From a virus (taxonomy: Duplodnaviria; Caudoviricetes), in IMG/VR virus record IMGVR_UViG_3300029305_011823: DNA of 64,000 nucleotides. One strand, given 5' to 3'. Under the pieces are notes generated by a model. It was not told the origin of the DNA, searched no databases, and saw nothing but the letters and a program-made list of their open reading frames with translations. Position numbers and translations under genes: made by a program. Positions 3 to 32,738 of this stretch are shown piece after piece; the stretch's first letter is position 1, and each line of letters begins with the position of its first letter.

Positions 3-3000
3 GATTATCAAGAAATACTTCTTGGCACTAATAATCTAGAAGTATTAAAATGTGATAAGCCTTCTACTATACATAAATTGGTAGAGTTACTTCCAGATAG
101 AAACGGACAAGAAAACCCAGGTAAATTAATAACTACTGTTCAAGATAGATTAAATCCTTATTGCTTTGAAGTGTTATTAGAAAAGAACTGGGAAATAACA
201 TCTGAAGTTGGTCTATTAGTAGCTGATTATATATTCGACCCTGCTATACATAATAGTATGATACCTGTTATGAATGATGGTTATCTTGATGATTGTGTTA
301 TAGAAGATGAGGTGATATTAAACTACGTAGAACCAACAGATGAAGTAGAAGTAGTAAATGAAAACGAAGGAATAATGACTTTAGAAGAAACTGAAGGAAG
401 AATGGTTATAAGAAGAAAAATTTATAATCTTAAAGGAGAATCTCCAAGTAGTATTAGATTCGGTGCTGCTTATATGGAACAGAATTTATACACTGATGAA
501 GTCTACCACTATCGTTTATCACTAATAGAAGTATTGTATATTGATATCAGTAACTGTACAGATATAACACGCCTATTTAATGTATGTAAAAATTTACGAA
601 AAGTTGAAGGTATGTTAGTAACTAACAAAATAACTGCAATGTCATCAGTATTCTTTGCTTGTAAAAAATTAACTTCAATAGATTTAAGTAACTGGGATAC
701 TAGAAATGTGACTACTATACAAGCTATGTTCTATCATTGTGATTCACTAACTTCATTAGATTTAAGTAATTGGGATGTTAGTAATGTAAGCGGTATGACT
801 TGTGTATTTACATGGTGTTCAGGTTTACAATCATTAAATTTAAATAATTGGAATACTAGTAATGTCATTCATATGAATGGATTTTTACAGGGTTGTGCTT
901 TATTAAGTAAATTAGATTTAAGTGGTTTTGATACTAGTAAAGTAACGACTATGAATAACATGCTTAATGGATGTAAATCTACATATATGGATTTATCCAA
1001 TTTTATAATCAATGATGATTGTGATATAACTTATATGATAGATTTTCAAAAATCAATCAAATATTTAAAACTAGACGACGCTGCTTCATTGGAAAAATTA
1101 CTTCCACAACTTCCAACTAGAGATGTTAATGACAAAGGACATATAGTAACTTATAATCCAGATGCTCTATCATCTACAGCTAAAACTACACTTACTAATA
1201 AAAACTGGGTAGTTCATTCAGTTGATGAATGTACAATTGCAGCTTATGGATTTGATAATACTGTATGCGAAGATGTAATGCCAATATTCAATGAAGATTA
1301 TGATGCTTCTGCGTTATCTATATCTGACCATGTTCACGGTGGATATTTTGTTCATAGAGATATCATGAACTTTGAAGGTAAACTACCATCAACAATTAAA
1401 TTCGGTGGAGATGAACCTGATGCTAGAACTAATGCATTAATGCAAATAGGTGATATTAACTTAACTGGAATAACTGATTATTCTGAAATGTTTAAAAACT
1501 GTACTAACTTAAATTATCTAAATATCTGTGTTGGAGAAAAAACTCCTACAAATGTCTCTCATATGTTTGAAGGATGTTCTAACTTAGAATTATTTGATAT
1601 TTATAGAATGGAATTTGACGAAATTACTTCATATGAAGGAATGTTCGCTGGATGTAATAAATTATGTAAAATAAGGGTAAGAGATATTCAAAATGAAGTA
1701 TTTATGAATATACTTAGAGATGAAAATAATAATTTTGCTGAAGTAAAAGAAATAGTAAGTAGTCGTGTACATGACTTAACTGAAGAAGAAAGAGGAGTAA
1801 TCGAAGGATTAGGATGGGGATTAAAAGGAATGATTGCTCATTATGCTTATGATGCTATGATAGCTAACGATTATATACCTGTATTTAATGATGAATTTAC
1901 TGATTTTGAAGTATTTGATTACTTAAATGAAAGACAAGGAATTATGCATAGAACTATAGAAAGTAATCAGTTGCCTACATTAATGAGATTTGGTCAGAGT
2001 GCGGCTGGAAATGATGGGGTAGAAAATATACCTAAAAATTTATTGAGTTTATTAGAAGTATATGACTGTGATACTAATAATTTAAATACTATGGAAAATA
2101 TGTTTGATTGGTGTATAAATGTTATTAAAATCAATGCTAATTGGGTTACTAGTAAAGTAACTAATATGCGAGCTATGTTCAATAATTGTCAAAAGTTAAC
2201 TTCATTAGATGTAAGTGGTTTTGATACTAGTAATGTAACTGATATGAGATATATGTTCAGTTATTGTAATAAACTAACTTCATTAGATGTAAGTAATTTT
2301 AATACTGGTAATGTAACTACTATGAGAAGTATGTTCGCTAATTGTTATAATTTAACTTCATTAGATGTAAGTAATTTTAATACTAGTAAAGTAGATAATA
2401 TGGCTGATATGTTCTGGAATTGTAGTAAATTAACATCATTAGATGTAAGTAAATGGGATACTAGTAAAGTAACTGATATGAGATATATGTTCAGTTATTG
2501 TAATAAACTAACTTCATTAGATGTAAGTAATTTTAATACTGGTAATGTAACTACTATGAGAAGTATGTTCGCTAATTGTTATAATTTAACTTCATTAGAT
2601 GTAAGTAATTTTAATACTAGTAAAGTAAATAATATAAGCAATATGTTCTCTTATTGTAATAAATTAACTTCATTAGATGTAAATAATTGGGATACTAGTA
2701 ATGTAGTTGCAGCACATTATATGTTTGATGCTTGTAGTTCATTAAAAGTCTTACATCTGAGTAATTGGGATACAACTAAAATATCACTTATGCAATTTAT
2801 GTTTGCTTCTTGTCATACTTTGTCAGTGTTAGATCTATGTAATTTTACAATAAACGAAAATACTAATATTGAAGTTTTATTTAGTTCAGCACTTCGTGTA
2901 ATTAGATGTAATAATGCTGAAAGTGTAAGAATGATTGTTCCTAAACTTATTACAAAAGAACAAGAATTAGAACCTGGCATAATAATATCAGATGCTGAAA

Positions 3001-5504
3001 TATCTGAAGAAACACTAGCAGCTCTAGCAGCTAAGAACTGGACTGTCGTTACTTCTGATTCATTTATTAAAGTTGCTGAATATGTATACGACCCTGATGT
3101 TTGGGCTTCATTAATACCTGAGTTCAACGCTGAGTTTGTAAGATACTTTATAAATGACGAAGAGATTGAAGGAGAAGGTGTTGACGGTACTGTTAAGACA
3201 TTGGTTAAGAGAACTATTTGGAGTTTAGGTGATTTACCTATAATGATGAAATTTGGATACCCTTATGGCGACAATTTAATTGGAAATAAACATAAGTCGT
3301 TATTGGAAGTTAATTATATAGATATGAATGCAATAAATACTATGCGTCATATGTTTAGACTTTGTACGAATATAAGAAAAATTGAGTTAAACACAATAGG
3401 CGATAATGTAACTGACATGTATACAGCTTTTGCTAATTGTTATAAATTAACTTCATTAGATGTAAGTAATTTTAATACTAGTAATGTAACTAATATGGAT
3501 TACATGTTCTATAGATGTGAATCATTAACTTTATTAGATGTAAGTAATTTTGATACTGGTAAAGTAACTACTATGGAATATATGTTTGGTCTTTGTAAAT
3601 CATTAACTTCGTTAGATGTAAGTAATTTTGATACTAGTAAAGTAACTATTATGAGAAGAATGTTTGCTTATTGTGAGTCATTAACTTCATTAGATGTAAG
3701 TAATTGGGATACTAGTAATGTAACTGATATGTATGAAATGTTCGTTAATTGTAAATCGTTAACTACATTAGATGTAAGTAACTGGAATACTGGTAAAGTA
3801 TACAGAATACACAGTATGTTTTATGGTTGTGGATTGCTTGAATCAATCGATCTAAGTAATTTTGAGTTAGATAAAATGACTAATGCTAACGGTTTTGGTT
3901 GGATGTTTAGTTTTTGCTCTAATCTAAAGGAAGTTAAATTACCTAAATTTAATATGTCGACATCATATGCTTGTATGTTTAGATACGCAACATCTATTAA
4001 ATTTATAGATTTATCTAACACTATTACAATAACTGAAAATATTTCTGAGTTGTTTGAAGAATGTCATAATCTAGAAACTATTGACATAAGCAATATTAAA
4101 CTGAATGTTTCTAGTAATGTTAATGAATTATTCTATAATGTTGGAAATACTTTAACAGACATAGGTATGGTTCACTGTGATGTTGAAACTATTAACATAG
4201 TAGCAGCACAAACACCAGTACAACCAATCACTATATGGATAGGAACTCACTTAACAGCAGAAGAAATAGCATCACTAGACCAATACGACCACATAACTTA
4301 CAGTATACAACTAGAAAACGCAGAGAGATTATTACTTAGCTCACCACTTCTTGAAGGTGATGAAATAAAAGTAGTAGATGGACAGTTATGTCATGTTCAT
4401 AATACTGGTATGGATGTATTTGATGGTAGTACTGACGAAGGTTGGGTTTTAGGTTCTGTAGGTACTAGTAACTATAGAATTGAATTATATTCTCAAGAAG
4501 TTCTTACATATGGTCATAGTTATTCGAATTATTTATCTAGAGGATTTGCGATATGTGATAGAATACCTAGATTATATACTGATACTACAGCTGATGCTAC
4601 TATTTATCCACTTGATAAATCATTTATAAGTTTATTAGATAGTGGTACATCAATTTATAATAGAGCAGCATCTATTAAATTATCAAGAGAAATTGCTAAT
4701 ACAGTTGCAGAAGGAAAAGCATGGTTAGCTAAAAATCCTCTTACTTTAATTTATTCATTAGCAGAACCTTGGACTGAAGTAATTGATTTACCAAGAGCTA
4801 ATATAGACGTAGAACTTTATGAAAACGGAGTACTTTATATGTCAGACCCAACTGCTTCTATAAATAGAGTTGATTCTGATGGTAATATGATTATAGATAC
4901 AATACAAGGGGATTCAGTTATGAACGTTTCTAATCAACAATTCTCTGTTGAATTATCAGAAGAATCTGATGCTCCTATACAAACAGGAGAAATATTAGAA
5001 GATAATTCTATTAGACCTAAATTCTACGGAAGAACTATGGTTAACTTAATGGATATAATTGGATGGGGAAAATTTATACATCCTACTGATAACTATGGTG
5101 CATATATTTATAATTCACATGATATAACAAATAAATCCATAACTATAACTAACTTTAATGATAAACCTATAAAAATAGGAATATATAATAGTGAAGTACA
5201 AAATGCTGATGGTAGAGGTGTAGATATAGCTGCTAATTCATCTGTTATTATAAATCTATCTGAAGTTGAAAGTTTATTCTCGGTACTTGGTAGATTTACA
5301 GAGGGATGGAGTGAAGAAAATATGCACGAACTTAAAAATATAAACATATTTGAAGGTGAATTATCTGAGGATGAATTACCTGAAAATAGAATGAACGGAA
5401 TGAGAAATGCGTTTGATAAGTATCAAACAACTGAAGGTAAATACAGAGTTGAAATGGTTGTAAGTAATTCACCAATTCAATTTGGTAAAGCTGGAAGAAA
5501 ATAA
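3..5504 (+). CDS. Giant multi-module LRR (DUF285/26-residue repeat) protein 1, 5'-truncated by the window; putative virion fibre/adhesin
   Basis: The frame is open from nt 3 (DYQEILLGTNNLEVLKCDKPSTIHKLVELLPDR), so the TTG at 78 is not the true start. It has four capped modules of LTSLDVSNWDTSNVTxMxxMFxxC repeats and a phage-tail-like C-terminal region (SSPLLEGD...KAWLAKNPLTLIY). Confidence 0.85.
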   Translation, partial: DYQEILLGTNNLEVLKCDKPSTIHKLVELLPDRNGQENPGKLITTVQDRLNPYCFEVLLEKNWEITSEVGLLVADYIFDPAIHNSMIPVMNDGYLDDCVIEDEVILNYVEPTDEVEVVNENEGIMTLEETEGRMVIRRKIYNLKGESPSSIRFGAAYMEQNLYTDEVYHYRLSLIEVLYIDISNCTDITRLFNVCKNLRKVEGMLVTNKITAMSSVFFACKKLTSIDLSNWDTRNVTTIQAMFYHCDSLTSLDLSNWDVSNVSGMTCVFTWCSGLQSLNLNNWNTSNVIHMNGFLQGCALLSKLDLSGFDTSKVTTMNNMLNGCKSTYMDLSNFIINDDCDITYMIDFQKSIKYLKLDDAASLEKLLPQLPTRDVNDKGHIVTYNPDALSSTAKTTLTNKNWVVHSVDECTIAAYGFDNTVCEDVMPIFNEDYDASALSISDHVHGGYFVHRDIMNFEGKLPSTIKFGGDEPDARTNALMQIGDINLTGITDYSEMFKNCTNLNYLNICVGEKTPTNVSHMFEGCSNLELFDIYRMEFDEITSYEGMFAGCNKLCKIRVRDIQNEVFMNILRDENNNFAEVKEIVSSRVHDLTEEERGVIEGLGWGLKGMIAHYAYDAMIANDYIPVFNDEFTDFEVFDYLNERQGIMHRTIESNQLPTLMRFGQSAAGNDGVENIPKNLLSLLEVYDCDTNNLNTMENMFDWCINVIKINANWVTSKVTNMRAMFNNCQKLTSLDVSGFDTSNVTDMRYMFSYCNKLTSLDVSNFNTGNVTTMRSMFANCYNLTSLDVSNFNTSKVDNMADMFWNCSKLTSLDVSKWDTSKVTDMRYMFSYCNKLTSLDVSNFNTGNVTTMRSMFANCYNLTSLDVSNFNTSKVNNISNMFSYCNKLTSLDVNNWDTSNVVAAHYMFDACSSLKVLHLSNWDTTKISLMQFMFASCHTLSVLDLCNFTINENTNIEVLFSSALRVIRCNNAESVRMIVPKLITKEQELEPGIIISDAEISEETLAALAAKNWTVVTSDSFIKVAEYVYDPDVWASLIPEFNAEFVRYFINDEEIEGEGVDGTVKTLVKRTIWSLGDLPIMMKFGYPYGDNLIGNKHKSLLEVNYIDMNAINTMRHMFRLCTNIRKIELNTIGDNVTDMYTAFANCYKLTSLDVSNFNTSNVTNMDYMFYRCESLTLLDVSNFDTGKVTTMEYMFGLCKSLTSLDVSNFDTSKVTIMRRMFAYCESLTSLDVSNWDTSNVTDMYEMFVNCKSLTTLDVSNWNTGKVYRIHSMFYGCGLLESIDLSNFELDKMTNANGFGWMFSFCSNLKEVKLPKFNMSTSYACMFRYATSIKFIDLSNTITITENISELFEECHNLETIDISNIKLNVSSNVNELFYNVGNTLTDIGMVHCDVETINIVAAQTPVQPITIWIGTHLTAEEIASLDQYDHITYSIQLENAERLLLSSPLLEGDEIKVVDGQLCHVHNTGMDVFDGSTDEGWVLGSVGTSNYRIELYSQEVLTYGHSYSNYLSRGFAICDRIPRLYTDTTADATIYPLDKSFISLLDSGTSIYNRAASIKLSREIANTVAEGKAWLAKNPLTLIYSLAEPWTEVIDLPRANIDVELYENGVLYMSDPTASINRVDSDGNMIIDTIQGDSVMNVSNQQFSVELSEESDAPIQTGEILEDNSIRPKFYGRTMVNLMDIIGWGKFIHPTDNYGAYIYNSHDITNKSITITNFNDKPIKIGIYNSEVQNADGRGVDIAANSSVIINLSEVESLFSVLGRFTEGWSEENMHELKNINIFEGELSEDELPENRMNGMRNAFDKYQTTEGKYRVEMVVSNSPIQFGKAGRK
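2235..2627 (+). repeat. Exact 159-bp direct repeat (2235-2393 = 2469-2627), offset 234 = 3 LRR units
   Basis: Base-by-base comparison. Confidence 0.9.
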
Positions 5505-5523
5505 TATTAATCTTTTATCTAAA

Positions 5524-5535
5524 AACAAATAGATA
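5524..5535 (+). promoter_or_regulatory. AACA-N6-TA late-type promoter
   Basis: AACA AATAGA TA upstream of LRR gene 2. Confidence 0.7.
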
Positions 5536-5596
5536 AGAGAAAAGGGCGTATAGAGATTTCTCTATACGCCTATTTAATATAGAAAGGAGAAAAAAT

Positions 5597-16546: not shown

Positions 16547-16552
16547 AACACT

Positions 16553-16593: not shown

Positions 16594-16598
16594 CTAAA

Positions 16599-16610: not shown

Positions 16611-16651
16611 ATGATAAAATAATCCAAATTTAAAAAGGAGTTGATTGTAAC

Positions 16652-17887
16652 ATGTCAATGGTAGATAAGGAGAAACTTGCTAGATTGGCTCATGCATTAG
16701 ATGATAGAGCTGATGAAAAAGTTGCTAATGAGGCACAAAGGGCTGCTCAAGCAGAAGCAGATATACAAGCACATAGTGATGCTACTAGAGAAATGCTTGG
16801 TGGAAAATCACTTAAATATTTAACACAAGCAGAGTATGATGTTTTATCAGAAGAAGAAAAGAAGAATGAAAATGTTATTTATTATATAACTGACCTTGAA
16901 GATAGAACTCATGATCATTATAACAAAGAAGTTTTAGATTTAATAGATGATGAGTTTATAAAAAATATAGGTAAAGGTCAATTATTAGAAATAGTTATAC
17001 CAGCAGAAGCTGGTTGGTATAGAGTAGCTTCTATGGAAGGTACTGGAGCTGGTCTTATAGACGTTCAATGTGGTCATGGTGAATATATCGTTATGATAGG
17101 ACATGGAGAAAACCATGAACCTAATATGATGCAATTAGGAATGTGTTCGTTAGGAGGACGTAGAAATAGCAAAATAAGAATGGTTCACCATAAAGAAACA
17201 GAAGAAGCTCATTTAGAACTTCATTATGAAGAAGGAGCTGAAGACATTAATGTAAAACTACAAATATTAGGTGAATCTGATTGGAGATTATCAGAACCAG
17301 TTAAAACTGAAGCTGTCGATGAAGCTTTATATCTTATAAGAGAAATGGTATTAGTTCCTGGAAAAATTGTTGGGGACTTCAGTGGTGTAATAGAACAAGC
17401 TAACAAACTAGCAGCACCTGTTCAAGTTATAATCGGTGATGTTCGTAGAGAATTTGATGGAACTGCAGATATATCTTTCTCATTAAATGAAATAGGAGCT
17501 GCTCCAAGGGAAAGTGAAGTTTTAACTACAGAAAACAAAGTGGTTATAGATGCAATAAATGAATTAGATGCTGATTTAGGAGTTGTTGAAGAAGCATTAG
17601 GTGGATATAAAATATGGGTTGGAAATACAGAACAATTAAATGCTATAGTAGAAAGAGACCCAATGACTTTATATTTTGAAATAAGTGATAGTGTAGCTTA
17701 TACTGAAATAAATCCTGAAGTAGAAGCAGCTGGTATAGCTACTACTGAAATATATGATGAAATGATACCTGCTTACGACCCAGTAGCAGAAGTAGAACAA
17801 GATGTTATATTAACATCACCTATGGGATTCAAATTTAAATTAAGAGTAGATGATTTCGGTAATCTATTCACAGAACCTGTAGAATAA
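16652..17887 (+). CDS. Tail-fibre-like adaptor/hub protein (411 aa)
   Basis: Several motifs typical of phage fibre proteins: LTQAEYDVL..YYITD, ANKLAAP..FDGTADISFSLNEIGA, LTTENKVVIDAINEL, KIWVGNTEQLNAI..DPMTLYF and C-terminal LTSPMGFKFKLRVDDFGNL. RBS AAGGAG. Confidence 0.7.
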   Translation: MSMVDKEKLARLAHALDDRADEKVANEAQRAAQAEADIQAHSDATREMLGGKSLKYLTQAEYDVLSEEEKKNENVIYYITDLEDRTHDHYNKEVLDLIDDEFIKNIGKGQLLEIVIPAEAGWYRVASMEGTGAGLIDVQCGHGEYIVMIGHGENHEPNMMQLGMCSLGGRRNSKIRMVHHKETEEAHLELHYEEGAEDINVKLQILGESDWRLSEPVKTEAVDEALYLIREMVLVPGKIVGDFSGVIEQANKLAAPVQVIIGDVRREFDGTADISFSLNEIGAAPRESEVLTTENKVVIDAINELDADLGVVEEALGGYKIWVGNTEQLNAIVERDPMTLYFEISDSVAYTEINPEVEAAGIATTEIYDEMIPAYDPVAEVEQDVILTSPMGFKFKLRVDDFGNLFTEPVE

Positions 17888-17896
17888 TAACAACAA

Positions 17897-17908
17897 AACA
17901 ATGAAATA
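17897..17908 (+). promoter_or_regulatory. AACA-N6-TA late-type promoter
   Basis: AACA ATGAAA TA upstream of LRR gene 3. Confidence 0.7.
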
Positions 17909-17980
17909 ATAAATTTAACATATGGAGTAAATAAATTCATTTACTCCATATTAATTATATAAAGGAGTGTGAATATTAAA

Positions 17981-26900: not shown

Positions 26901-29900
26901 TAAATACATTAGATGTAAGTAAATGGGATACTAGTAATGTAACTAGAATGGATTCTATGTTCCGTGATTGTACTGATTTAACTACAATAAATCTAAGTAA
27001 TTTTAATACTGGTAAAGTAACTACTATGGATAGTATGTTCTATGGTTGTAGTAATTTATCATTATTAAACGTAAGTAATTTTAATACTGGTAAAGTAACT
27101 AATATGATTAATATGTTCTATAGTTGTAGTAATTTATCATCATTAGATTTAAGTAATTGGGATACTAGTAAAGTAGATAATATGGCTTATATGTTCAAAA
27201 ATTGTAATAAATTAACTTCATTAGATGTAAGTAAATTTAATACTAGTAATGTAATTAATATGTATTGTATGTTCGATTATTGTGAATCATTAACATCATT
27301 AGATGTAAGTAATTGGGATACTAGTAAAGTAATTAATATGAAATATATGTTTAGAGCTTGTAATCTATTAACTTCATTAGATGTAAGTAATTGGAATACT
27401 AGTAATGTAACTAGTATGGCTAATATGTTCTGTAATTGTAATAATTTAACTTCATTAGATGTAAGTGGTTTTGATACTAGTAAAGTGACTAGTTTGCATA
27501 GTATGTTCTGGGGTTGTCATAAATTAACAACAATAGATGTAAGTAATTGGGATACTAGTAATGTAACTAGTTTCTATGCTTTATTCCACCAATGTTATGT
27601 AATGACAACGCTAGATGTAAGTAACTTTGATACTAGTAAAGCAACAGAATTACATTTCTTTGCTTCATATAATGGTGCAACAATAATGAATCTTAATAAT
27701 ATAAAATTCAGAGAAGCTGATTATAGTATATTAGTATCAACAAAAGTTGAAAAAATGTATTTAAATAGTTTAGAAACATTAAATAAAGTATTGGAATATC
27801 TACCAGACAGAACAGGAAAAGAATCAGGTAAACTTGTTACTTCATTAAGAAACAAAATACCAGAAGAAACACTTGCAGCTTTAACTGCTAAAAACTGGGA
27901 AATAGTTGACATAGTTGCTCAGTACAGATTCGACGCTAACAAATATGAAAACTTATTACCTGAGTTCAATGCTGAGTTTACTGCTGATAAGTATAGAGTA
28001 ATAGATGATGTTCATGAGTATGTTGTTGATGATATACAATGGAAAATCGGTTATATAAATATGCAGGGTGAATTACATTCATCTACAGATACTATGATAA
28101 GTAGTTATATACCATGTGAAAATGCAGCAGTATATGTATTCGATACACCTATTAATGTTCATTGGTTTGATGGTGATAAAAAATATATTGGTATAAGTCA
28201 AAATTCAAATAACACATATCCTAGAGCAATACCAAAACCAATTAGTGCTAAATATTTCATAGTAAGTAGATTTATAACAACAGGAGAGGCTTTAAATATT
28301 TCATATAAACTAGTAAATAGAACTATAGAAAGTGTAAATGGAGATTTACCTACATTAATGAGATTTGGATTACACGCAAATTATGCATATACTCAATACA
28401 CAGATAGAGAAACGTCTTTATTGGAAGTTTATGCGTTAAATACAAATGAAATAACAAATATGTCTCAAATGTTTAGACAATGTAGAAATTTAGCACATAT
28501 TAGAACATCTGAAATAGATACTAGTAAAGTAACTGATATGCAATTTATGTTCCAAACATGTATGAAATTAAAATATGTTGATGTAAGTAATTGGGATACT
28601 AGTAAAGTAACTACTATGGATAATTTATTCCAAGATTGTCAATCGATAACTTCATTAGATGTAAGTAATTGGAATACTAGTAATGTAACTATAATGCAAA
28701 GTACGTTTGGTAGTTGTAAAAAATTAACTTCAATAGATGTAAGTGGATGGGATACTAGTAAAGTAACTAATATGCACAATATGTTTGGAATATGTCAATC
28801 ATTAACTTCATTAGATTTAAGTAATTTCGATACTAGTAAAGTAAATGATATGAATAATATGTTCTATAATTGTCAATCATTAACTTCATTAGATGTAAGT
28901 GGATGGGATACTAGTAGTTTAAGAGATATGGGTAATATGTTTAAAGATTGTAAAAAATTAACTTCAATAGATATAACTGGTTTTGATACTAGTAAAGTAA
29001 CTAATATGCATGCTATGTTTGCTTTCTGTGATTCATTAATAAACCTTAATATAAGTAATTTTAAATATGATAGTATAGATACAAGTGATTATATGAATTC
29101 AAGTAGTATGATCTCAAGTAATGGTGATACAAAATTAGTTTCATTAAATTTACCAAAAGCAGATTTACCTGATAGTATAGTTGGAATTATACTTAACAGA
29201 AATGGGCTTAAATATGTTAAATGTGAAAACAAAAATAACATTACTAAGATAATTTCACATCTTCCAGCAAGAACATCAGCAGACCCAGGTAAGATAATAA
29301 CTAAAGTTCCTATGTCACAATTTACTGAACTTGAAATACAAGCATTAGCTGATAAAAACTGGACTATAAGTAATGAAGCTTTACAAGTAGTTGCTAAGTA
29401 TAGATTTGCTAAAGATCTTTACAGAAGTTTAATACCTGCATTTAACTCAGGTTTCACAACTAATTACTTTGTAGATGATGAATATTTGAATACTGAAGAT
29501 TTAACTGATATGTATGGAAAAGATTATAACCAAGGATACACTATAACTGCAGAAAACATAGTTACTAGAACTATAAGTGTTCTTGAAGAGGAAGTATTAC
29601 CAACTAGAATTACATTCGGTACGAGTTGGTTTACTAATAGTACCTTAGTTGATGAAAGACCTAAAGCTATATCTTTACTAGAATCAATAGAAATTAATAC
29701 AAATAATTTATCAAGTATGGCTTATATGTATAGATTATGCTACAATGTTAAAAATATAAGTACTGAAGGCTGGGATACTAGTAAAGTAGTTGATATGAAA
29801 TGTGCATTTGCTAATTGTTATAATTTATTATCGATAGATGTAAGTAATTTCGATACTAGTAATGTATTGAATATGTATAGTATGTTCTATATTAATAGAA

Positions 29901-32734
29901 ACTTAGGTGGTAATCTTGACGTATCTAATTGGGATACTAGAAATGTAACTAATATGGAATTTATGTTCCAAAGTTGTGAGAAATTAACTTCATTAGATGT
30001 AAGTAATTTTGATACTAGTAATGTAACTAGAATGGATTACATGTTCTATAAATGTAATAATTTAACTTCATTAGATGTAAGTAATTTTGATACTAGTAAA
30101 GTGTTTGATATGCAATATATGTTTAATGGTTGTAATAATTTAACTTCATTAGATGTAAGTGGTTTTGATACTAGCAATGTAACTAATATGAATAATATGT
30201 TCTGTAATTGTAAATCATTAACTTCATTAGATGTAAGTAATTTCGATACTAGTAAAGTAACTACTATGAGTGGTATGTTCTTTGGTTGTAAATTATTAAC
30301 TTCATTAGATGTAAGTAATTTCGATACTGGCAATGTAACTAATATGAGTGGTATGTTCTATGATTGTAATCAGTTAACTTCATTGGATGTAAGCAATTGG
30401 AATACTAGTAATGTAACTAATATGTATGCATTATTCCAATTCTGCACACATTTAACTTCATTAGATTTAAGTAATTTTGATACTAGTAAAGTAACTAATA
30501 TTGGTATTATGTTTAACTCTTTACGTTTTATAGAAAATATAGATTTAAGTAATTGGGATACTAGTAATGTAACTAGTATGTGGAAATCATTATGTGGTTG
30601 TGCTGTTAAAAATCTAAATCTTAATAATATTATTATTTCACCATTAACTGATATTGATGGAATATTAGAAAGTGTTGACAGATTAGAAAAAATCTACATC
30701 AATATTCCTGAAACAGTGGATAGAATAGTTTCTCATCTTCCAGATAGAAGCTTAACAACTACTGGACGTATAATAATGCCTAATAAAGACCAAGTATCTG
30801 CAGAAACAGTTGCTTTATTGGCTGGTAAAAACTGGCACCTTGGAAACTTAATTGCTTCTTATAAATACGACAGTAATATTTGTGAGGACTTAATACCAGT
30901 GTTCAATGATGGATTTGGTACAGATAAATACGTTGTTGTGGATACAAATGATAGTCATAAGATAATAACAAGAAATATAGAAGATGTTGATGGTACAATG
31001 CCTACAATGGTTAGATTCGGTACTAATGTAAGTGGTGGTGCTGTAACTGATGCAACTAGTTCTCTACTTGAATTATTAGATATGAATACTCAAGAAATAA
31101 CATTCATGGAGGATATGTTTAGATCTTGTGTAAACTTAAAAGCTGTAAATACTAAACATTGGAACACAAGTAAAGTAACTGTAATCGGAAGTTTATTCTG
31201 TAAATGTGAAGTGTTAACTACAATAGATGTTAGTATGTTCGATACTAGTAATGTAGTTGATATGGAAAGAGTATTCGGATACTGTTACGACTTAGAGACA
31301 ATCATCGGTCTTGAAAAATGGGATACAAGTAAAGTAACTAATATGTATTATTTATTCTATCAATGTAATAAATTACGAAGTGTAGATTTAAGTAATATTG
31401 ATACTAGAAATATAGATAATTTAGCACAAACATTTGCTGCTTGCCATGCATTAACAAAATTAGATTTAAGTAATTTTGATACTAGTAAGGTAATCATTTT
31501 TAATAAAACATTCAATGCTTGTCGTGGATTAATAGAATTAGATTTAAGTAACTGGAATGCTGATAATGTAAATAATAGTGAATACTTCATTAACAATTGT
31601 CCAGAATTAACAACTGTAACAGTAAACACACTTTCAATGATGAACGTAGTTACAAATAGGTTGCCAGATAGAACTGGAAAAGAAGCAGGTACTGTTGTTT
31701 ATTATGGAATAGATGAAGCGGATATAGATACAGAAACATTACAAGCTAAAAACTGGAATTTAAGCTATGAACCAATATTAGCTAAATACATCTTCGATAG
31801 CAATGTATATGAAAACTTCTTACCAAAATTCAATGGTGAGTACTTAAGTGTAAACTATAAAGTTATAGATGATGTAAAAGCTGATGGTAGAGTAGTAAGA
31901 ACATTAAAATATGATAATGATAAGAGACCTACTTGGATACGTCTTGGTGATTATGATTCTACAAATGACGAATTACGTAAACAAGCATTATTGGATGTAT
32001 TGTATGTTAATATTGATAGCCATATATTATCATGCTACTATTCATTTGCAAATTGTAGAGTACTTAAACGTATAAATACTAGAAATTGGAATACTGAAAA
32101 TGTAGAAGATATGTATTGTATGTTCCATGGTTGTAATTCATTAATTTCATTAGATCTAAATAGCTTTGATACTAGAAATGTAACTGATATGGCACATATG
32201 TTCCAAAGCTGTCAAACATTAACTACGATAGATTTAAGTAACTTTGATACTAGTAATGTAATTGATATGAATCATATGTTCCATAATTGCCATAAATTAA
32301 CTTCATTAGATCTAAGTAATTGGGATACTAGTAATGTAACTGATATGAGTAATATGTTTAGATCTATGGTATCAATTACAACTTTAGATATAAGTAATTT
32401 TAATATGGAAAATATTATAAATTGCGATAGTATGATTTTATGGAATAATGCTAATGTTATTAATATGAGTAATTGTAAGACAGAAGATATTAATACAATA
32501 ATAGGACAATTACGAAAACATGATGACGGTATAATTAGAAAACTTTATATTTTAAATAATAAAGAACATGACTTAATAGATAAAGCTACTTTAGATACTA
32601 AGAATTGGAAAGCTGTAATCTATGGTGGTAATATTAAAGCTGTTCATATACCAGAAGGAATATTTAACTCACTTGGATTAGGAAATGTGTTACTTAAACA
32701 TATTCATATAGGTGAAAGATTCCTAGAAGATTAA
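17981..32734 (+). CDS. Giant multi-module LRR protein 3 (~4917 aa), 10 capped LRR modules
   Basis: ATG 17981 is preferred because the GTG at 17969 abuts the RBS. Ten N-caps (AxYxF/YDxxxxxxLxPxFN) are each followed by an LRR array and an LPxR...KNW C-cap. Short distinct C-terminus. Confidence 0.88.
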   Translation: MADIAKYKFNSDTDVLPIFGDINFEYTYTDEIGSDGTITRTIVANSSPNSIKFTEKTGLISVEFIDMTEITSCAEMFKDCINLTYVDFNSVNTSKVTDMRSMFEGCSGFLSIDLSGLNTGNVLDMTNMFRGCSNVFSIDTSMINVSKATSLNSMFQGCANITGISLQGWNLSNVVNMGWMFDGCTNLLSVILKGVNIPNSATITDMFKDCIILNNVNMDNCSVEDINKMMRVLPERTDGRDYKLKTNLADVSGINTEDLEAKGWRLATYEIVLRYKFDKSIYANLIPEFNSNFIDYVVIDEVVEGNIVTRAIGHENLKPTKIYFGSPYTELNSQFPKSNSLLSIEHLDPSNLYDVRGMFRYCRNLTSIDVTNWVTTKITSLWDMFSLCTNLQEIIGLETWDTSNVDSLNATFHGCNNLSYIGDISGWQTGKVHDMAYLFSACYNLTSIDISNWDTSIVTTMYYMFNSCRSLVSLNVQGIDVGNVNNMANMFSQCNKLTTIDVSGWDTKNVTNMSFMFSKSIALIQIIGIENFITSKVTNMQDVFGGCLALRSLNLSNWDVSKVTHFNGTFNDCNSLTELNVSSWVTTSAQYMQAMFFGCHNLLSLDLSNFVTTNVLDMTQMFDRCWVITEIKGLENWNVGKVTSMRYLFSACHKVTELNVSNWNVEKVTNMEYMFYCCERLTLLDLNNWNPTRVQNMSNMFKFSSGLQSISSSNWNTDSLTTINSICYGCNNLTTLDVSNWNTSKVNDMNSAFHQCYNLTTLDVSNWDTSNVTNMNSLFSECNKVNGLDVSNWDVSKVEHLSGIFKDCYKLSSLDVSRWNTSSAIRTHMLFYGCNSLQSLDVSNFNTSKASLMRGMFGSLQSITMLDLSSIDTSSVTNDTFADYMYSMYNLKTLILGEKSLAKHIDTWDETFDYEHQITPFPVLERLVCPDEETIERISKYLPDRSTAVNPGVIVTNATISDEAMNTISGKNWSLRKMVAQYKFDAVTYENLIPEFNAEFTESDYVITDSVSESVIDNIQWIDGYALTADTGALTNDDESHVSDFIVIQPNVAYRVNQPTYVYWYDENKAFINNDYVSEEDYNAGNDNMVSPVNARYVRFTQYSYREGLEVESKVVTRTIESVAGKLPTFMRFGGVTDLVDVFDRPYSLLEICNLNTENINSMHSMFHYCKRLTKVNSINWNTNKVTNMFDMFSECHSLSSLDASKWNTGNVTTMSHMFHKCHSISSIGDVSNWNTGKVTTMYSMFNSCYLLTSLDVSKWNTSNVTDMSNMFRSMVSITTLDISNWDTSKVTNMAYMFANCKSLTSLDVSNFDTSNVTNMNFMFYNCNKLTSLDVSRWVTSNVNDMQGVFHSCKLLTSLDVSNWDTGNVTSMFELFQNCNNLTSLDVSNWDTSNVTDMKYMFRCCYNLTSLDVNNWDTSKVTDMGYMFDGCHSLTSLDVSNWDTGNVEYMGYMFNATDGYSMSLTSLDLSKWDTSKVTSMPNMFEQCDSIERLNLSNWDTSKVYIMQYLFSYCRSLTSLDISNWSLANVNSMPGMFLNTDNLRLIKCDNPATVNIIAQYLMDRTSQEKAGMIVIDDTEGLDTTALTAKNWTVVPTSAQHIVAEYKFNKDLADLMPELNPEFDAYFVYDEYNDTEAIETTGYETMMLFNADSEPDEDGVITAETEVEVVNTVEAGNIVTRKIVSYGDDLPTLMRFGGLGDSAVEYNRAKSLIRIEQLDTTGLTTMHHMFRMCENVVYINNNNWNITNVTTMQGAFLGCYNLTSLDVSNWDTSSATVMGGMFRDCNALTSLDVSNFDTSKVTDMSYMFYDCYSLTSLDVSNFNTSNVTTMNRMFYKCSNLTSLDLSNFDTSKITNMAYMFNACYNLTSLDVSKWQTGSLIYMNSMFNACHNLTSLDLSNWNVSNVTDMQGAFGGCKLLTTLGDISNWNVGKVTNVYDMFGYCKSLVSLDLSNWNTDSLTNMSHFIYGADKLEEIYLSDWNVSKVWTMFNAFMDCYKLATIDVSSWVTTKLENTQAMFAKCSSLTSLNLSNWDVSKVTNMSNMFNNCTALTTVGDLSGWTTTNLANLDRTFTNCKALTSLDINNWNTSKVTQMQYLFSNCESLTSLNLNKWDTSKVTDMTAMFRNCYLLSSLDISNFNTINVMSLSYMFHQCKSLTSLNVSSFDTSNVNRMYATFWDCRSLTSLDVSNFDNSKVTDMGSFVGSCIALKSLNLGNVVINSSNINDNRLLLNNTDLEELYVNDKGTLDYILPFLPNRTEKAVGKIVTSIRSQIPQETLAVLTSKNWVIYDVVAQYLYDSSRYANLLPEFNAEYTSDKYVVTDVDRSQSLKVTRWEAGILDANGANTTSTDYPNAMRSDFIKIRAAKYTFNIDYCQVYWYDENKNLVANSGVYGTNSGIQNGKVCEAPIGARYLRIYRAVGKTDCSIDCSLIERTIESVNGELPTKMSFGIADGDDRSRALIELIQANVSELTTMIAMFDTCDRMSFCNTANWDTSKVTDMACIFSACNNLTSLDVSNWDVSNVTDMRLMFCRCYILSSLDVSKWDTRNVTDMYAMFYNCNNLTSLDVSNFDTSKVTNMNSMFYNCNNLTSLDVSNWNTESLSGTGAQYLFYGCSNLTSLDLSNWKVDNLTSFHCMFHGCSKLSTIGNAGNWKTGKSQSFEQMFNGCGISSLDVSNWTTDYVFNMYAMFHGCSNLATIKGIGKWNVSRTHSLHNMFTNCSSLLSLDLSNWNPAATNLFGFLYGCNKLVSLDITNWDMSNVNNFNSFTYNCSALKYVKCNTVNSINKLMGKGLPTRPANDSGLIICNADTTNLDVAALNAKNWRIATATDIVTVAQYKFDKSICEDFMPYFNDGANYPVFVRDEVDGNIVTRTLEIVNGMELPNEVTFGIKSTNADDRTNREQSLYEVLYVNTKNINNMQYMFNYCQYLTTVNTDGWDTSKVINMKYMFRACNLLTSLDVSNFDTKNVGNMQGMFTACKVINTLDVSKWDTSNVTRMDSMFRDCTDLTTINLSNFNTGKVTTMDSMFYGCSNLSLLNVSNFNTGKVTNMINMFYSCSNLSSLDLSNWDTSKVDNMAYMFKNCNKLTSLDVSKFNTSNVINMYCMFDYCESLTSLDVSNWDTSKVINMKYMFRACNLLTSLDVSNWNTSNVTSMANMFCNCNNLTSLDVSGFDTSKVTSLHSMFWGCHKLTTIDVSNWDTSNVTSFYALFHQCYVMTTLDVSNFDTSKATELHFFASYNGATIMNLNNIKFREADYSILVSTKVEKMYLNSLETLNKVLEYLPDRTGKESGKLVTSLRNKIPEETLAALTAKNWEIVDIVAQYRFDANKYENLLPEFNAEFTADKYRVIDDVHEYVVDDIQWKIGYINMQGELHSSTDTMISSYIPCENAAVYVFDTPINVHWFDGDKKYIGISQNSNNTYPRAIPKPISAKYFIVSRFITTGEALNISYKLVNRTIESVNGDLPTLMRFGLHANYAYTQYTDRETSLLEVYALNTNEITNMSQMFRQCRNLAHIRTSEIDTSKVTDMQFMFQTCMKLKYVDVSNWDTSKVTTMDNLFQDCQSITSLDVSNWNTSNVTIMQSTFGSCKKLTSIDVSGWDTSKVTNMHNMFGICQSLTSLDLSNFDTSKVNDMNNMFYNCQSLTSLDVSGWDTSSLRDMGNMFKDCKKLTSIDITGFDTSKVTNMHAMFAFCDSLINLNISNFKYDSIDTSDYMNSSSMISSNGDTKLVSLNLPKADLPDSIVGIILNRNGLKYVKCENKNNITKIISHLPARTSADPGKIITKVPMSQFTELEIQALADKNWTISNEALQVVAKYRFAKDLYRSLIPAFNSGFTTNYFVDDEYLNTEDLTDMYGKDYNQGYTITAENIVTRTISVLEEEVLPTRITFGTSWFTNSTLVDERPKAISLLESIEINTNNLSSMAYMYRLCYNVKNISTEGWDTSKVVDMKCAFANCYNLLSIDVSNFDTSNVLNMYSMFYINRNLGGNLDVSNWDTRNVTNMEFMFQSCEKLTSLDVSNFDTSNVTRMDYMFYKCNNLTSLDVSNFDTSKVFDMQYMFNGCNNLTSLDVSGFDTSNVTNMNNMFCNCKSLTSLDVSNFDTSKVTTMSGMFFGCKLLTSLDVSNFDTGNVTNMSGMFYDCNQLTSLDVSNWNTSNVTNMYALFQFCTHLTSLDLSNFDTSKVTNIGIMFNSLRFIENIDLSNWDTSNVTSMWKSLCGCAVKNLNLNNIIISPLTDIDGILESVDRLEKIYINIPETVDRIVSHLPDRSLTTTGRIIMPNKDQVSAETVALLAGKNWHLGNLIASYKYDSNICEDLIPVFNDGFGTDKYVVVDTNDSHKIITRNIEDVDGTMPTMVRFGTNVSGGAVTDATSSLLELLDMNTQEITFMEDMFRSCVNLKAVNTKHWNTSKVTVIGSLFCKCEVLTTIDVSMFDTSNVVDMERVFGYCYDLETIIGLEKWDTSKVTNMYYLFYQCNKLRSVDLSNIDTRNIDNLAQTFAACHALTKLDLSNFDTSKVIIFNKTFNACRGLIELDLSNWNADNVNNSEYFINNCPELTTVTVNTLSMMNVVTNRLPDRTGKEAGTVVYYGIDEADIDTETLQAKNWNLSYEPILAKYIFDSNVYENFLPKFNGEYLSVNYKVIDDVKADGRVVRTLKYDNDKRPTWIRLGDYDSTNDELRKQALLDVLYVNIDSHILSCYYSFANCRVLKRINTRNWNTENVEDMYCMFHGCNSLISLDLNSFDTRNVTDMAHMFQSCQTLTTIDLSNFDTSNVIDMNHMFHNCHKLTSLDLSNWDTSNVTDMSNMFRSMVSITTLDISNFNMENIINCDSMILWNNANVINMSNCKTEDINTIIGQLRKHDDGIIRKLYILNNKEHDLIDKATLDTKNWKAVIYGGNIKAVHIPEGIFNSLGLGNVLLKHIHIGERFLED
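21762..21834 (+). repeat. 73-bp LRR unit identical to 32325-32397
   Basis: Both encode the atypical Cys-less unit MSNMFRSMVSITTLDIS. Confidence 0.9.
23258..23436 (+). repeat. 179-bp LRR cassette identical to 7277-7455
   Basis: Base-by-base comparison. Confidence 0.9.
26768..27392 (+). repeat. 79-bp LRR unit duplicated (26768-26846 = 27314-27392), offset 546 = 7 units
   Basis: Base-by-base comparison. Confidence 0.88.
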
Positions 32735-32738
32735 TAAA

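What the first reader, a model, noticed from the sequence alone, without database searches (positions are those of the whole stretch)
3..32734. ~31 kb of giant capped-LRR arrays encoded by a jumbo phage inside a fibre locus: candidate virion-displayed multi-receptor array
Seen: three proteins totalling >10,000 aa, built from at least 20 super-modules (4+, 6 and 10). By eye they hold roughly 200+ 26-aa repeats with a fixed framework (LTSLDVSNW/FDTSxV) and variable positions around xMxxMFxxCxx. No signal peptide or lipobox is visible on the two complete genes, and no LPxTG on any. They are interleaved with tail-fibre-motif, collagen and coiled-coil genes under the same late-type promoter. Known: DUF285/TIGR02167-type repeats are mostly described on bacterial surface proteins, and LRR solenoids bind ligands through variable positions. 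Inference: the virion displays a string of ~20 different LRR binders, a VLR-like panel for variable host surface proteins or mucosal ligands.
Basis: partly seen in the sequence, partly recalled or inferred. Interest (0 to 1): 0.88.

Follow-up and report, generated by a model that had tools for sequence, protein, structure and literature searches.

The report
Giant leucine-rich-repeat fibre genes of jumbo phage
A giant gut phage spends about a seventh of its genome on three enormous genes, each a string of self-contained leucine-rich-repeat binding domains, sitting among tail-fibre genes and driven by late promoters; they are most likely very long sticky fibres on the virus particle, a use of this repeat that is annotated in other phages but has never been tested.

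Summary
Three ORFs (1833 aa with an open 5' end, 3649 aa, 4921 aa) carry 214 DUF285/PARCEL (TIGR02167) 26-residue repeats in 20 capped modules (4 plus a remnant, 6, 10). There is no signal peptide, membrane segment or LPxTG.

An AlphaFold model of one module (pLDDT 87.6) is an LRR solenoid with its own caps and a beta-sandwich insert.

The genes lie in a fibre locus of an AR9-like jumbo phage. Each has a copy of the AR9 late-promoter consensus (AACA-N6-TA), which the holin gene shares. The C-termini of genes 1 and 2 are homologous to tail-fibre proteins found in other phages' tail modules.

A related 227-kb phage keeps the same gene order but has different module numbers (gene 2: 1551 vs 3649 aa). 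Repeat positions 16, 18, 19, 22, 23, 25 and 26 are nearly saturated with change.

Virion display is therefore likely but not shown. The VLR analogy is weak: the canonical concave strand is conserved, the variable residues lie in the other half of the repeat, and no reverse transcriptase is present.

DUF285 genes are already annotated in more than 100 phage records, including a 19-kb gene in Vibrio phage pir03. This scan had also noted the same stretch in an overlapping window.

Verdict: a new variant of a known kind, of moderate interest.

The parts
3..5504 (+). Giant LRR gene 1, 3' part (1833 aa in the window, 5' end outside).
   Evidence: the orthologue in the relative is 4283 aa
1236..1832 (+). 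Short three-repeat module of gene 1 (P0001:412-610). It is 90% identical to the related phage, whereas neighbouring modules are 47-62% identical.
4140..5501 (+). C-terminal non-LRR region of gene 1. About 260 aa are 31% identical to the matching part of gene 2.
5523..5536 (+). AR9-type late-promoter motif (AACA-N6-TA) upstream of gene 2
5597..16546 (+). Giant LRR gene 2 (3649 aa): six capped DUF285 modules (71 repeats), two of them with a beta-sandwich insert in the N-cap, then a C-terminal fibre-like region.
14714..16543 (+). C-terminal tail-fibre-like region of gene 2 (P0002:3040-3649). It consists of beta-rich, CBM-like domains.
   Evidence: phrog_6782 'tail fiber protein' E 1e-13; homologues in phage tail modules; low-confidence model with beta-sandwich matches
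16598..16611 (+). Late-promoter motif upstream of the 411-aa fibre gene
16652..17887 (+). 411-aa fibre protein with an N-terminal coiled-coil-like part and a Phage_tail_C tip domain. It is 70% identical in the relatives.
   Evidence: the same pairing with a capped DUF285 gene occurs on another contig
17896..17909 (+). Late-promoter motif upstream of gene 4
17969..32734 (+). Giant LRR gene 4 (4921 aa from GTG; ATG at 17981 is the likelier start): ten capped DUF285 modules (116 repeats), three with a beta-sandwich insert, and no fibre-like C-terminal domain.
27914..29389 (+). The module that was modelled (P0003:3316-3807): N-cap strand, beta-sandwich insert, eight-repeat LRR solenoid and an alpha/beta C-cap.
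   Evidence: AlphaFold2 pLDDT 87.6, pTM 0.80; Foldseek hits to internalin, designed LRRs and a Bacteroides BspA-type LRR at E about 1e-6; viral BspA/DUF285 proteins at E down to 3e-17
32738..32751 (+). Late-promoter motif upstream of the collagen-like fibre gene
32843..37027 (+). Collagen-like tail fibre (1394 aa)
   Evidence: Pfam Collagen E 1e-89; many tail-fibre PHROGs
37066..41546 (+). Three further genes of the fibre block (240, 303 and 906 aa). The last has weak tail-fibre PHROG matches.
41595..41969 (+). Late-promoter motif (41595-41608) and holin gene (41625-41969) that close the block
   Evidence: Phage_holin_1 E 5.6e-16; motif

Best explanation
The three genes encode late, virion-associated fibre or adhesin proteins of an AR9-like jumbo phage.

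Each protein is a beads-on-a-string chain of complete LRR domains. A module has an N-cap (sometimes with a beta-sandwich insert), 3-21 DUF285 repeats and an alpha/beta C-cap, and the linkers between modules are only a few residues long. By inference this gives filaments tens of nanometres long.

Genes 1 and 2 end in a beta-rich region shared with ordinary phage tail-fibre proteins. That region probably ties them into the fibre or baseplate apparatus, or forms a distal tip. Gene 4 lacks it and may ride on another fibre component.

The conserved repeat framework builds the solenoid. Six or seven residues per repeat (positions 16, 18, 19, 22, 23, 25 and 26, rich in Tyr, Asn, Ser, Asp and His) form a rapidly evolving exposed stripe that is inferred to contact ligands on the host cell surface. 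This would give multivalent, low-specificity first attachment.

The arrays diversify by module gain and loss and by gene-conversion-like exchange of cassettes between the three genes, not by a dedicated mutagenic system.

Shown: the architecture, the fold prediction, the locus, the promoter motif, the homology of the C-terminal region, the fast evolution and the cassette exchange.

Inferred: virion location, binding function and ligand.
For: - Family and fold: DUF285/TIGR02167 far above threshold. The module model has pLDDT 87.6 and matches LRR structures.
- Locus: the 411-aa Phage_tail_C gene lies between genes 2 and 4. Collagen-like fibre genes flank the block, on both sides in the relative. 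A holin lies at the end.
- Promoters: the motif occurs 6 times against 0.98 expected, always before a gene, including each giant gene and the holin. It is conserved at the orthologous sites in the relative. It equals the AR9 late consensus 5'-AACA-N6-T(A/G) (PMC7598289).
- C-terminal region of gene 2: phrog_6782 'tail fiber protein' at E 1e-13. It has 52 homologues. Some are about 1100-aa non-LRR proteins placed between Prophage_tail/DUF859 and lysin genes. Others are 900-1000-aa proteins with one DUF285 module plus the same C-terminus. Gene 1 shares part of the region.
- No signal peptide, membrane segment or LPxTG.
- Split among the 120 best giant relatives: the 15 with cap motifs all lack a signal-like N-terminus, and the 84 with a signal-like N-terminus all lack caps. 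Cap-type genes on other phage-like contigs sit beside a Phage_tail_C gene or an endolysin.
- Evolution: a related 227-kb phage has the same gene order but gene 2 of 1551 aa against 3649 aa. Inner modules are 39-47% identical, against 70% for the fibre gene. The variable repeat positions differ in 70-86% of aligned orthologous repeats, against 37% outside the repeats.
- Cassette exchange: exact DNA identities of 179, 159 and 126 nt between and within the genes.
- Precedents: DUF285 genes lie between minor-tail and baseplate genes in Aeromonas jumbo phage LAh10. Two DUF285 proteins were detected in Aureococcus virus particles (PMC7507832). LRR-bearing fibre-cloud proteins have been proposed for phage Goslar.
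Against: - No proteomic, imaging or expression data exist for this phage or its relatives.
- The giant proteins start directly with an LRR module. They have no recognisable N-terminal baseplate-attachment domain.
- Gene 4, the largest, has no tail-fibre-like domain at all.
- LRR solenoids are normally monomeric, whereas tail fibres are usually trimers.
- The canonical concave face is conserved. The ligand face may therefore be the conserved one, with the variable stripe merely unconstrained.
- High divergence at exposed positions fits relaxed constraint as well as it fits selection. The positions are too saturated for a dN/dS test with only two genomes.
- The C-terminal model is poor (pLDDT 63.7), so 'CBM-like' is only a hint.
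- Butyrivibrio virus Arian carries its DUF285 gene outside any evident tail module, near the small terminase and before the lysis genes.
Confidence: 0.55

Rival explanations
1. The proteins are on the virion, but they bind the habitat rather than the host receptor: plant fibre, mucus or biofilm matrix. This would hold phage particles where hosts live, as proposed for Ig-like capsid decorations. The phage would copy the adhesive repertoire of gut bacterial BspA/DUF285 surface proteins.
For: - Thousands of giant bacterial DUF285 proteins exist in gut metagenomes: at least 4029 hits of 2006-6386 aa. Many have a signal peptide, and some have the Pfam entry PF00404 (dockerin, by my memory of the accession).
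- The phage comes from cattle-gut samples according to earlier notes of this scan.
- The beta-sandwich inserts and the C-terminal domains give weak carbohydrate-binding-type structural matches.
- The phage has other, conventional fibre genes that could carry receptor specificity.
Against: - Rapid turnover of modules between closely related phages is more typical of host-range determinants than of binding to conserved habitat polymers.
- No carbohydrate-binding family was detected by sequence.
- The structural hints come from a low-confidence model.
Confidence: 0.2
2. The proteins are made late but are not part of the particle. They are released at lysis, or act inside the cell, as soluble multivalent binders. 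Examples would be masking receptors on debris and neighbouring cells, aggregating cells, or sequestering host proteins.
For: - There is no recognisable virion-attachment domain at the N-termini, and none at all in gene 4.
- The holin gene shares the same promoter motif, so the motif marks late genes in general, not structural genes only.
- The DUF285 gene of Butyrivibrio virus Arian lies outside an evident tail module.
Against: - The C-termini of genes 1 and 2 are homologous to proteins that occupy tail-fibre positions in other phages.
- The genes are embedded between fibre genes in both phage lineages and in Aeromonas phage LAh10.
- Making more than 10,000 aa of soluble protein late in infection would be costly.
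- DUF285 proteins have been found in Aureococcus virus particles.
Confidence: 0.15
3. The arrays are mainly structural. They would be long, inert spacer 'hairs' whose repeat number drifts through recombination between PARCEL repeats, with variable residues that are simply unconstrained. In that case there is no panel of specific binders.
For: - Module numbers differ freely between relatives (gene 2: 6 modules against 2). Exact cassette copies show ongoing unequal exchange.
- The conserved concave face argues against classical LRR ligand diversity.
- The PARCEL paper describes such repeats as mobile and expansion-prone (PMC2996958).
Against: - All 214 repeats keep an intact framework and open reading frames across about 31 kb in a compact phage genome. 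The locus is kept at about 14% of the genome in a relative.
- The variable positions are enriched in Tyr, Asn, Ser, Asp and His, which is typical of binding surfaces.
- Each module keeps its own caps.
Confidence: 0.1

Closest known systems
Vibrio jumbo phage vB_VhaM_pir03 ORF200, a 19,254-bp PARCEL/DUF285 gene (PMC7765460)
   Same: It is a giant DUF285/PARCEL repeat gene in a jumbo phage that encodes multisubunit RNA polymerases. Its GC content matches the rest of the genome, and its function is unknown.
   Different: It is a single gene in a Gram-negative marine phage. The paper reports no capped super-module architecture, fibre-domain fusion or fibre-locus context. Here there are three genes with 20 or more capped modules in a fibre block with late promoters. 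I did not examine the pir03 sequence itself.
[quoted passage not shown]
   Same: They match by DUF285 repeats (tblastn, 25-28% identity). In LAh10 the genes (2311 and 826 aa) lie between minor-tail and baseplate genes. The predicted LRR fold is shared.
   Different: They are much smaller and distantly related. There are no data on whether they have the cap motifs. They are annotations only and have never been studied.
Bacterial DUF285/PARCEL (TIGR02167, 'BspA family') surface proteins of Mollicutes, Listeria and gut Bacillota/Bacteroidota
   Same: They have the same 26-residue repeat with a conserved hydrophobic framework and variable hydrophilic positions. They reach giant sizes and show a tendency to horizontal spread and repeat shuffling.
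   Different: The bacterial proteins have a signal peptide or lipobox and wall or cellulosome anchors, and in my sample they lack the AxYKFD / KNW cap motifs (0 of 84). The phage proteins have no export signal and are cut into capped modules.
Tail-fibre proteins of about 1100 aa in phages and prophages of Bacillota (phrog_6782-type), located between Prophage_tail/DUF859 and the lysis genes
   Same: They share the unit 'SPLLEGD...YHYHKMG...DGSDDEGW...NP.T.VYELA.P.YE...LGGT...DYF.G' with the C-terminus of gene 2 at 28-31% identity.
   Different: They have no LRR part and carry two copies of the unit. Their N-terminus is a different, presumably baseplate-binding, region.
Lamprey variable lymphocyte receptors and internalins (classical LRR binders)
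   Same: They are capped LRR solenoids, and the fold matches at Foldseek E about 1e-6 to 1e-5.
   Different: In those proteins the variable, ligand-contacting residues are the x positions of the LxxLxLxxN concave strand. Here those positions are nearly invariant (T, S, D, S) and the variability lies in positions 16-26. There is no somatic assembly or mutagenic retroelement.
DUF7941 'fibre cloud' proteins of Chimalliviridae phage Goslar (bioRxiv 10.64898/2026.04.21.720040)
   Same: They are accessory fibre proteins in a jumbo phage. Some carry LRR or beta-helix and carbohydrate-binding domains, and they are proposed to aid host recognition.
   Different: They have a different anchoring module (DUF7941, exclusive to chimalliviruses), are far smaller, belong to a different phage family and have no DUF285 arrays.

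Membership tests
DUF285 / PARCEL repeat (Pfam PF03382, NCBIfam TIGR02167) | Tandem 26-residue repeats that match the family models above their curated cut-offs | tested here: met
   PF03382 scores 413 and 1194 bits against a cut-off of 25. TIGR02167 scores 577 bits against a cut-off of 30. There are 214 repeats of period 26.
DUF285 / PARCEL repeat (Pfam PF03382, NCBIfam TIGR02167) | Conserved hydrophobic framework alternating with variable hydrophilic positions | tested here: met
   Per-position entropy is 0-1.5 bits for the framework and 2.8-3.6 bits at positions 16, 18, 19, 22, 23 and 25.
DUF285 / PARCEL repeat (Pfam PF03382, NCBIfam TIGR02167) | Dyad (palindromic) symmetry of the coding DNA, as defined in PMC2996958 | not tested
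   I did not analyse DNA symmetry.
Bacterial 'BspA family' surface protein (as NCBI names DUF285 proteins) | Export and surface anchoring: signal peptide or lipobox, and a wall, membrane or dockerin anchor | tested here: not met
   There is no signal-like N-terminus, hydrophobic segment or LPxTG. Cap-type relatives also lack a signal-like N-terminus: 15 of 15, against 84 signal-bearing cap-less proteins (crude heuristic).
Leucine-rich-repeat solenoid fold | Predicted right-handed solenoid with a parallel beta-ladder that matches solved LRR structures | tested here: met
   The model has pLDDT 87.6 and pTM 0.80. There are 164 PDB matches at E<=0.001, led by designed LRRs, internalin A, Leptospira LRR proteins and BACOVA_04585. 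This is a prediction only, since no DUF285 structure was found by sequence.
Phage tail fibre / receptor-binding protein | Homology to proteins annotated or positioned as tail fibres | tested here: met
   For gene 2: phrog_6782 at E 1e-13 and homologues in tail modules. For gene 1: it shares about 260 aa of that region at 31% identity. For gene 4: nothing was found beyond the LRR families.
Phage tail fibre / receptor-binding protein | Position in the late structural and fibre gene block | tested here: met
Phage tail fibre / receptor-binding protein | Physical presence in the virion and attachment to the baseplate or tail | not testable with these tools
   This needs virion proteomics or imaging. 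No attachment domain was recognised by sequence.
VLR-like / classical LRR binder panel | Variable residues on the concave LxxLxLxxN strand | tested here: not met
   Positions 2, 3, 5 and 7 of L1-T-S-L4-D-V6-S-N8 have entropy 0.3-0.9 bits. The variability lies at positions 16-26. The assignment of faces is by sequence register. I could not inspect the model coordinates.
Diversity-generating retroelement target | A reverse transcriptase in the phage genome | tested here: not met
   No PF00078 match in the 97%-complete related phage G001, while the controls gave matches. The window's own full genome is not held.
AR9-type late (non-virion RNA polymerase) promoter | 5'-AACA-N6-T(A/G)-3' upstream of late genes in a phage that encodes split RNA polymerase subunits | tested here: met
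   The motif AAACAAWNNNATAA contains AACA-N6-TA. It occurs 6 times against 0.98 expected and is positionally conserved in the relative. Split beta/beta' genes are present. Transcription itself was not tested.

The most novel reading that the evidence does not exclude
A lineage of gut jumbo phages has evolved a distinct class of virion appendage. These would be monomeric filaments, perhaps 50-100 nm long, built from up to ten or more self-contained capped LRR domains. Each domain would present a different hypervariable convex stripe. The filaments would be reshuffled between three paralogous genes by cassette conversion, giving a germline-encoded, recombination-driven receptor panel that sets host range or niche retention. 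This would be the first function assigned to the DUF285/PARCEL repeat in any virus.
Probability: 0.3. Interest if true: 0.8.

Novelty: new variant of a known kind. Interest (0 to 1): 0.5.

Why it matters
DUF285/PARCEL repeats are among the commonest unexplained surface repeats in gut bacteria, mycoplasmas, algae and giant viruses, and no ligand or structure is known for them.

Here a phage devotes about 14% of its coding capacity to them, in a setting (late fibre block, fusion to a tail-fibre domain) that gives a concrete hypothesis to test: multivalent adhesion fibres.

The clean split found here would give a simple marker for finding such fibres in metagenomes. Capped multi-module proteins lack an export signal, whereas uncapped bacterial proteins have signal peptides.

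If binding is confirmed, the modules would be a natural library of stable, cysteine-containing LRR binders. The locus would also be a model for host-range evolution by cassette exchange without a mutagenic retroelement.

Tried and rejected
- **Homotrimer test.** I ran complex prediction on the conserved C-terminal unit (P0002 about 3040-3330, three copies). The result was no verdict (score 0.00), so it says nothing either way.
- **C-terminal structure.** The model of the gene 2 C-terminal region reached only pLDDT 63.7. Its PDB matches (GH101 accessory domains, Vip3 C-terminal domains, CBM51/CBM16) are weak and were used only as a hint of beta-sandwich content.
- **Pfam at E<=1.** Nothing was found for the beta-sandwich insert, the C-terminal subdomains, or the 240-aa and 303-aa neighbours.
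- **ESM Atlas look-up of the insert domain.** The best score was 0.84, below the useful range. An earlier call failed on the length limit.
- **PDB sequence search.** No solved DUF285 structure was found, only marginal LINGO-type LRR hits. Nothing was found for the C-terminal region.
- **Megablast against phages.** The non-LRR half of the window gave no match, so no close cultured relative exists in that collection.
- **Whole-genome search.** It was not possible because no genome is held for this window.
- **Diversity-generating retroelement.** I considered this because Asn, Tyr and Ser dominate the variable positions. I rejected it because the related phage has no reverse transcriptase.
- **First promoter pattern.** My first guess at the pattern was mis-specified and gave 0 hits. 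It was replaced after aligning the five upstream regions.
- **Sigma-70 scan.** It gave no enrichment: 38 hits against 40 expected.
Full report
**1. What is there**

The first 32.7 kb of the window hold three very long plus-strand ORFs:
- gene 1: 3..5504, 1833 aa, open at the 5' end;
- gene 2: 5597..16546, 3649 aa;
- gene 4: 17969..32734, 4921 aa.

A 411-aa gene (gene 3, 16652..17887) lies between genes 2 and 4. GC content is 27-30% throughout the block, the same as the rest of the window.

All three giant proteins match Pfam DUF285 (PF03382; 413 and 1194 bits for genes 1 and 2). Gene 1, the one scanned, also matches NCBIfam TIGR02167, now named 'PARCEL repeat-containing surface protein', with weaker overlapping hits to generic LRR families.

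An HMM built from the window's own repeats finds 27, 71 and 116 repeats, 214 in all and 195 above 5 bits. They almost always recur every 26 residues.

The repeats are grouped into modules. Each module starts with an N-cap motif (AxYKFD...IPxFN...LPTxMRFG) and ends with a C-cap motif (LPxRT...GxIVT...AALxAKNW). Gene 1 has four modules plus the C-cap of a fifth at the window edge, gene 2 has six and gene 4 has ten.

Within the repeat L1-T-S-L4-D-V6-S-N8-W/F9-D-T-S-x-V14-T-x16-M17-x-x-M20-F21-x-x-C24-x-x, the framework is nearly invariant. Positions 16, 18, 19, 22, 23 and 25 carry 2.8-3.6 bits of entropy and are dominated by Tyr, Asn, Ser, Asp, His and Ala.

None of the proteins has an LPxTG motif, a hydrophobic segment or a signal-like N-terminus.

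For gene 4, the ATG at 17981 is a more plausible start than the GTG at 17969. The GTG lies one base after the AGGAG, and the orthologue in the relative starts MANIAIYKF.

**2. Fold**

I modelled one module (P0003:3316-3807) with the 13 other modules as its alignment. The model has pLDDT 87.6 and pTM 0.80. In order it shows:
- a short N-terminal strand;
- a beta-sandwich of about 110 residues, an insert present in five of the 20 modules;
- a regular solenoid with beta-bridges at repeat positions 7 and 20-21;
- an alpha/beta C-cap.

Foldseek against the PDB gives 164 matches at E<=0.001. The leaders are designed LRRs, internalin A, Leptospira LRR proteins and the Bacteroides BspA-type protein 4fs7. 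Against predicted viral structures, the best matches are proteins named BspA-family or 26-residue-repeat proteins of phages and giant viruses, with E down to 3e-17. No solved DUF285 structure exists by sequence search.

By sequence register, L1xxL4xV6xN8 is the canonical LRR concave strand. Its outward-facing x positions (T, S, D, S) are conserved here, and the variable residues lie in the second, convex-side half of the repeat. I could not inspect coordinates, so the statement that the variable residues form one exposed stripe is an inference. It rests on the i, i+3, i+4, i+7 spacing of the buried residues M17, M20, F21 and C24.

**3. Context: a jumbo phage fibre block with late promoters**

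The minus-strand half of the window encodes split beta/beta'-like RNA polymerase subunits (phrog_2987 E 3e-62; phrog_2962 E 2e-66). Their nearest cultured relatives are phiR1-37 and the PBS1/AR9-like Bacillus phages, at under 30% identity. No whole genome is held for the window.

Two IMG/VR contigs of 227.5 kb (97% complete) and 202.6 kb carry the same locus.

Downstream of gene 4 lie, in order:
- a 1394-aa collagen-like tail fibre (Collagen E 1e-89, with dozens of tail-fibre PHROGs);
- three more genes (240, 303 and 906 aa), the last with weak tail-fibre PHROG matches;
- a holin (Phage_holin_1 E 5.6e-16).

Gene 3 has a Phage_tail_C tip domain (E 5e-8).

In the relative, the block is preceded by a second collagen-like fibre gene (1431 aa). 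An endolysin gene lies further upstream, on the opposite strand.

Aligning the five upstream regions gave the motif AAACAAWNNNATAA. It occurs six times in the window against 0.98 expected (0 of 100 shuffles reach six). Every copy is intergenic and on the coding strand: before gene 2, gene 3, gene 4, the collagen gene, the holin gene and one minus-strand gene. The motif is present at the orthologous positions in the relative, including before gene 1. It contains exactly the AR9 late-promoter consensus 5'-AACA-(6N)-T(A/G)+1 (PMC7598289). 'Late-type promoter' is therefore well supported by sequence, although transcription has not been measured.

**4. Link to tail fibres**

The last 600 or so residues of gene 2 are not LRR. 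Part of them matches phrog_6782 'tail fiber protein' at E 1e-13.

A database search with this region found 52 relatives, of three kinds:
- close orthologues;
- proteins of 900-1000 aa with a single DUF285 module followed by the same C-terminal region. P0007 is on a contig with phage replication genes, and P0013 is next to another DUF285 protein;
- proteins of about 1100 aa without LRRs that carry the unit twice. They sit between Prophage_tail/DUF859 genes and glucosaminidase/amidase lysis genes on phage contigs of 82-91 kb, which is the usual place of a tail fibre or receptor-binding protein.

Gene 1 shares about 260 residues of this region at 31% identity. Gene 4 has no such domain. The AlphaFold model of the region is poor (pLDDT 63.7) and suggests only a chain of beta-sandwich domains with weak carbohydrate-binding-type matches.

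**5. Evolution**

In the 227-kb relative the three genes encode 4283, 1551 and 5058 aa. That is 32.7 kb, or 14.4% of the genome, and every DUF285 match listed for that genome falls in these three frames (two further matches were not listed).

Gene order is identical, and the fibre gene between the giant genes is 70% identical. Gene 2, however, has two modules there instead of six.

Terminal modules are recognisably orthologous (48-62% identity). Inner modules are no closer to the relative (39-47%) than to paralogues in the same genome. One short three-repeat module of gene 1 is a striking exception at 90% identity.

In orthologous repeats, positions 16, 18, 19, 22, 23, 25 and 26 differ in 70-86% of cases. 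This compares with 37% for non-repeat residues and 5-45% for framework positions.

Repeats are typically 60-80% identical at the DNA level. Against that background there are exact identities of 179 nt between genes 2 and 4, 159 nt within gene 1 and 126 nt within gene 2. This confirms recent gene-conversion-like cassette exchange, which other readers of this scan had also noted. The relative has no reverse transcriptase, so a diversity-generating retroelement is unlikely.

**6. How common and how new**

DUF285-type sequences are present in 113 records of the phage collection. Among them are:
- jumbo phages of Aeromonas, Sphingomonas (PAU), Vibrio, Serratia and Erwinia;
- Prevotella, Campylobacter and Synechococcus phages;
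- Butyrivibrio viruses Arian and Bo-Finn from the rumen, at up to 42% identity.

In Aeromonas phage LAh10, two such genes lie between a minor-tail gene and a baseplate gene.

In the held paper library I found only one paper that discusses such a gene in a phage. It describes ORF200 of Vibrio jumbo phage pir03, a 19,254-bp PARCEL gene of unknown function (PMC7765460). For the giant virus AaV, two DUF285 proteins were detected in purified particles (PMC7507832). A 2026 preprint proposes LRR-bearing accessory fibres for phage Goslar.

Giant DUF285 proteins are abundant in metagenomes: at least 4029 clusters of 2006-6386 aa match one module at E<=1e-10. Among the 120 best, a crude test splits them cleanly. 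Fifteen have the cap motifs and none of those has a signal-like N-terminus. Eighty-four have a signal-like N-terminus and none of those has caps.

Cap-type genes on other long contigs again sit next to a Phage_tail_C gene or near an endolysin.

The capped, export-signal-free, multi-module form therefore looks like a phage-specific variant of a widespread bacterial surface repeat. I did not find it described in the papers I could search.

**7. Interpretation**

The best reading, at about 0.55, is that these are late virion fibre or adhesin proteins. Each would be a chain of complete LRR domains, and two of the three would be tied to the fibre apparatus through a shared tail-fibre-type C-terminal region. 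The rapidly evolving stripe of each repeat would serve multivalent attachment to the host surface.

The rivals are:
- **Habitat adhesion (0.2).** The proteins are on the virion but bind the habitat rather than the host.
- **Late, non-virion binders (0.15).** The proteins are made late but are not part of the particle.
- **Structural hairs (0.1).** The arrays are essentially structural, with unconstrained surfaces.

The main weaknesses of the best reading are these:
- there is no experimental evidence;
- no attachment domain is recognisable at the N-termini, and gene 4 has none at all;
- the usual monomeric state of LRRs does not match the trimeric state of most fibres;
- the conserved concave face could be the real interaction surface.

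The trimer prediction gave no verdict.

**8. Verdict**

Because DUF285 giants in phages are already annotated and one has been published, this is a new variant of a known kind. It stands out for its scale (more than 10,400 aa in the window, and about 14% of a related genome), its capped multi-module architecture and its fusion to tail-fibre domains.

Noticed in passing
window 7277-7455 and 23258-23436; 2235-2393 and 2469-2627; 5609-5734 and 6770-6895: There are exact DNA identities of 179 nt (gene 2 against gene 4), 159 nt (within gene 1) and 126 nt (within gene 2), against a background of about 60-80% identity between repeats. This points to recent gene conversion or cassette exchange.
   Followed up: partly
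window 1236-1832 (P0001:412-610): A short module with only three repeats is 90% identical to the related phage, while flanking modules are 47-62% identical. It is a conserved bead in a hypervariable string and could be a structural or docking element.
   Followed up: no
It has no Pfam family and no useful Atlas match. A similar-looking motif (NLFDG...Y..F.YD..K.YI) recurs in the C-terminal region of gene 2.
   Followed up: partly
window 5545-5570, 17926-17951 and 32741-32778: For genes 2 and 4 and the collagen gene, the late-promoter motif lies upstream of, or overlaps, a strong hairpin. The hairpin would therefore sit in the 5' leader of the downstream transcript as well as ending the upstream gene. 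For gene 3 and the holin gene the order is hairpin first, then motif.
   Followed up: no
window 41625-41969: A holin gene (Phage_holin_1) closes the fibre block under the same late-promoter motif. A long perfect hairpin follows at 41968-42007, where the convergent minus-strand genes begin.
   Followed up: partly
window 48129-49583 and 51246-52457 (minus strand): Split RNA polymerase beta/beta'-like subunit genes are present (phrog_2987, phrog_2962). Their closest cultured relatives are Yersinia phage phiR1-37 and the PBS1/AR9-like Bacillus phages, at 27-29% identity.
   Followed up: partly
L015 28046-29501 (ENA ERZ28633576 scaffold_17): On another phage-like contig of 108 kb, a 1708-aa protein combines a CotH kinase-like domain with DUF285 repeats, a few genes downstream of a 3166-aa capped DUF285 gene.
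   Followed up: no
L007 14764-15999 (related phage, N-terminus of gene 1): Gene 1 of the relative starts with a non-LRR region of about 110 aa (…VSWGDN…HVYEKAGVYDISG…, PKD-like by eye) and has no signal peptide. The corresponding part of the window's gene 1 lies outside the window.
   Followed up: no
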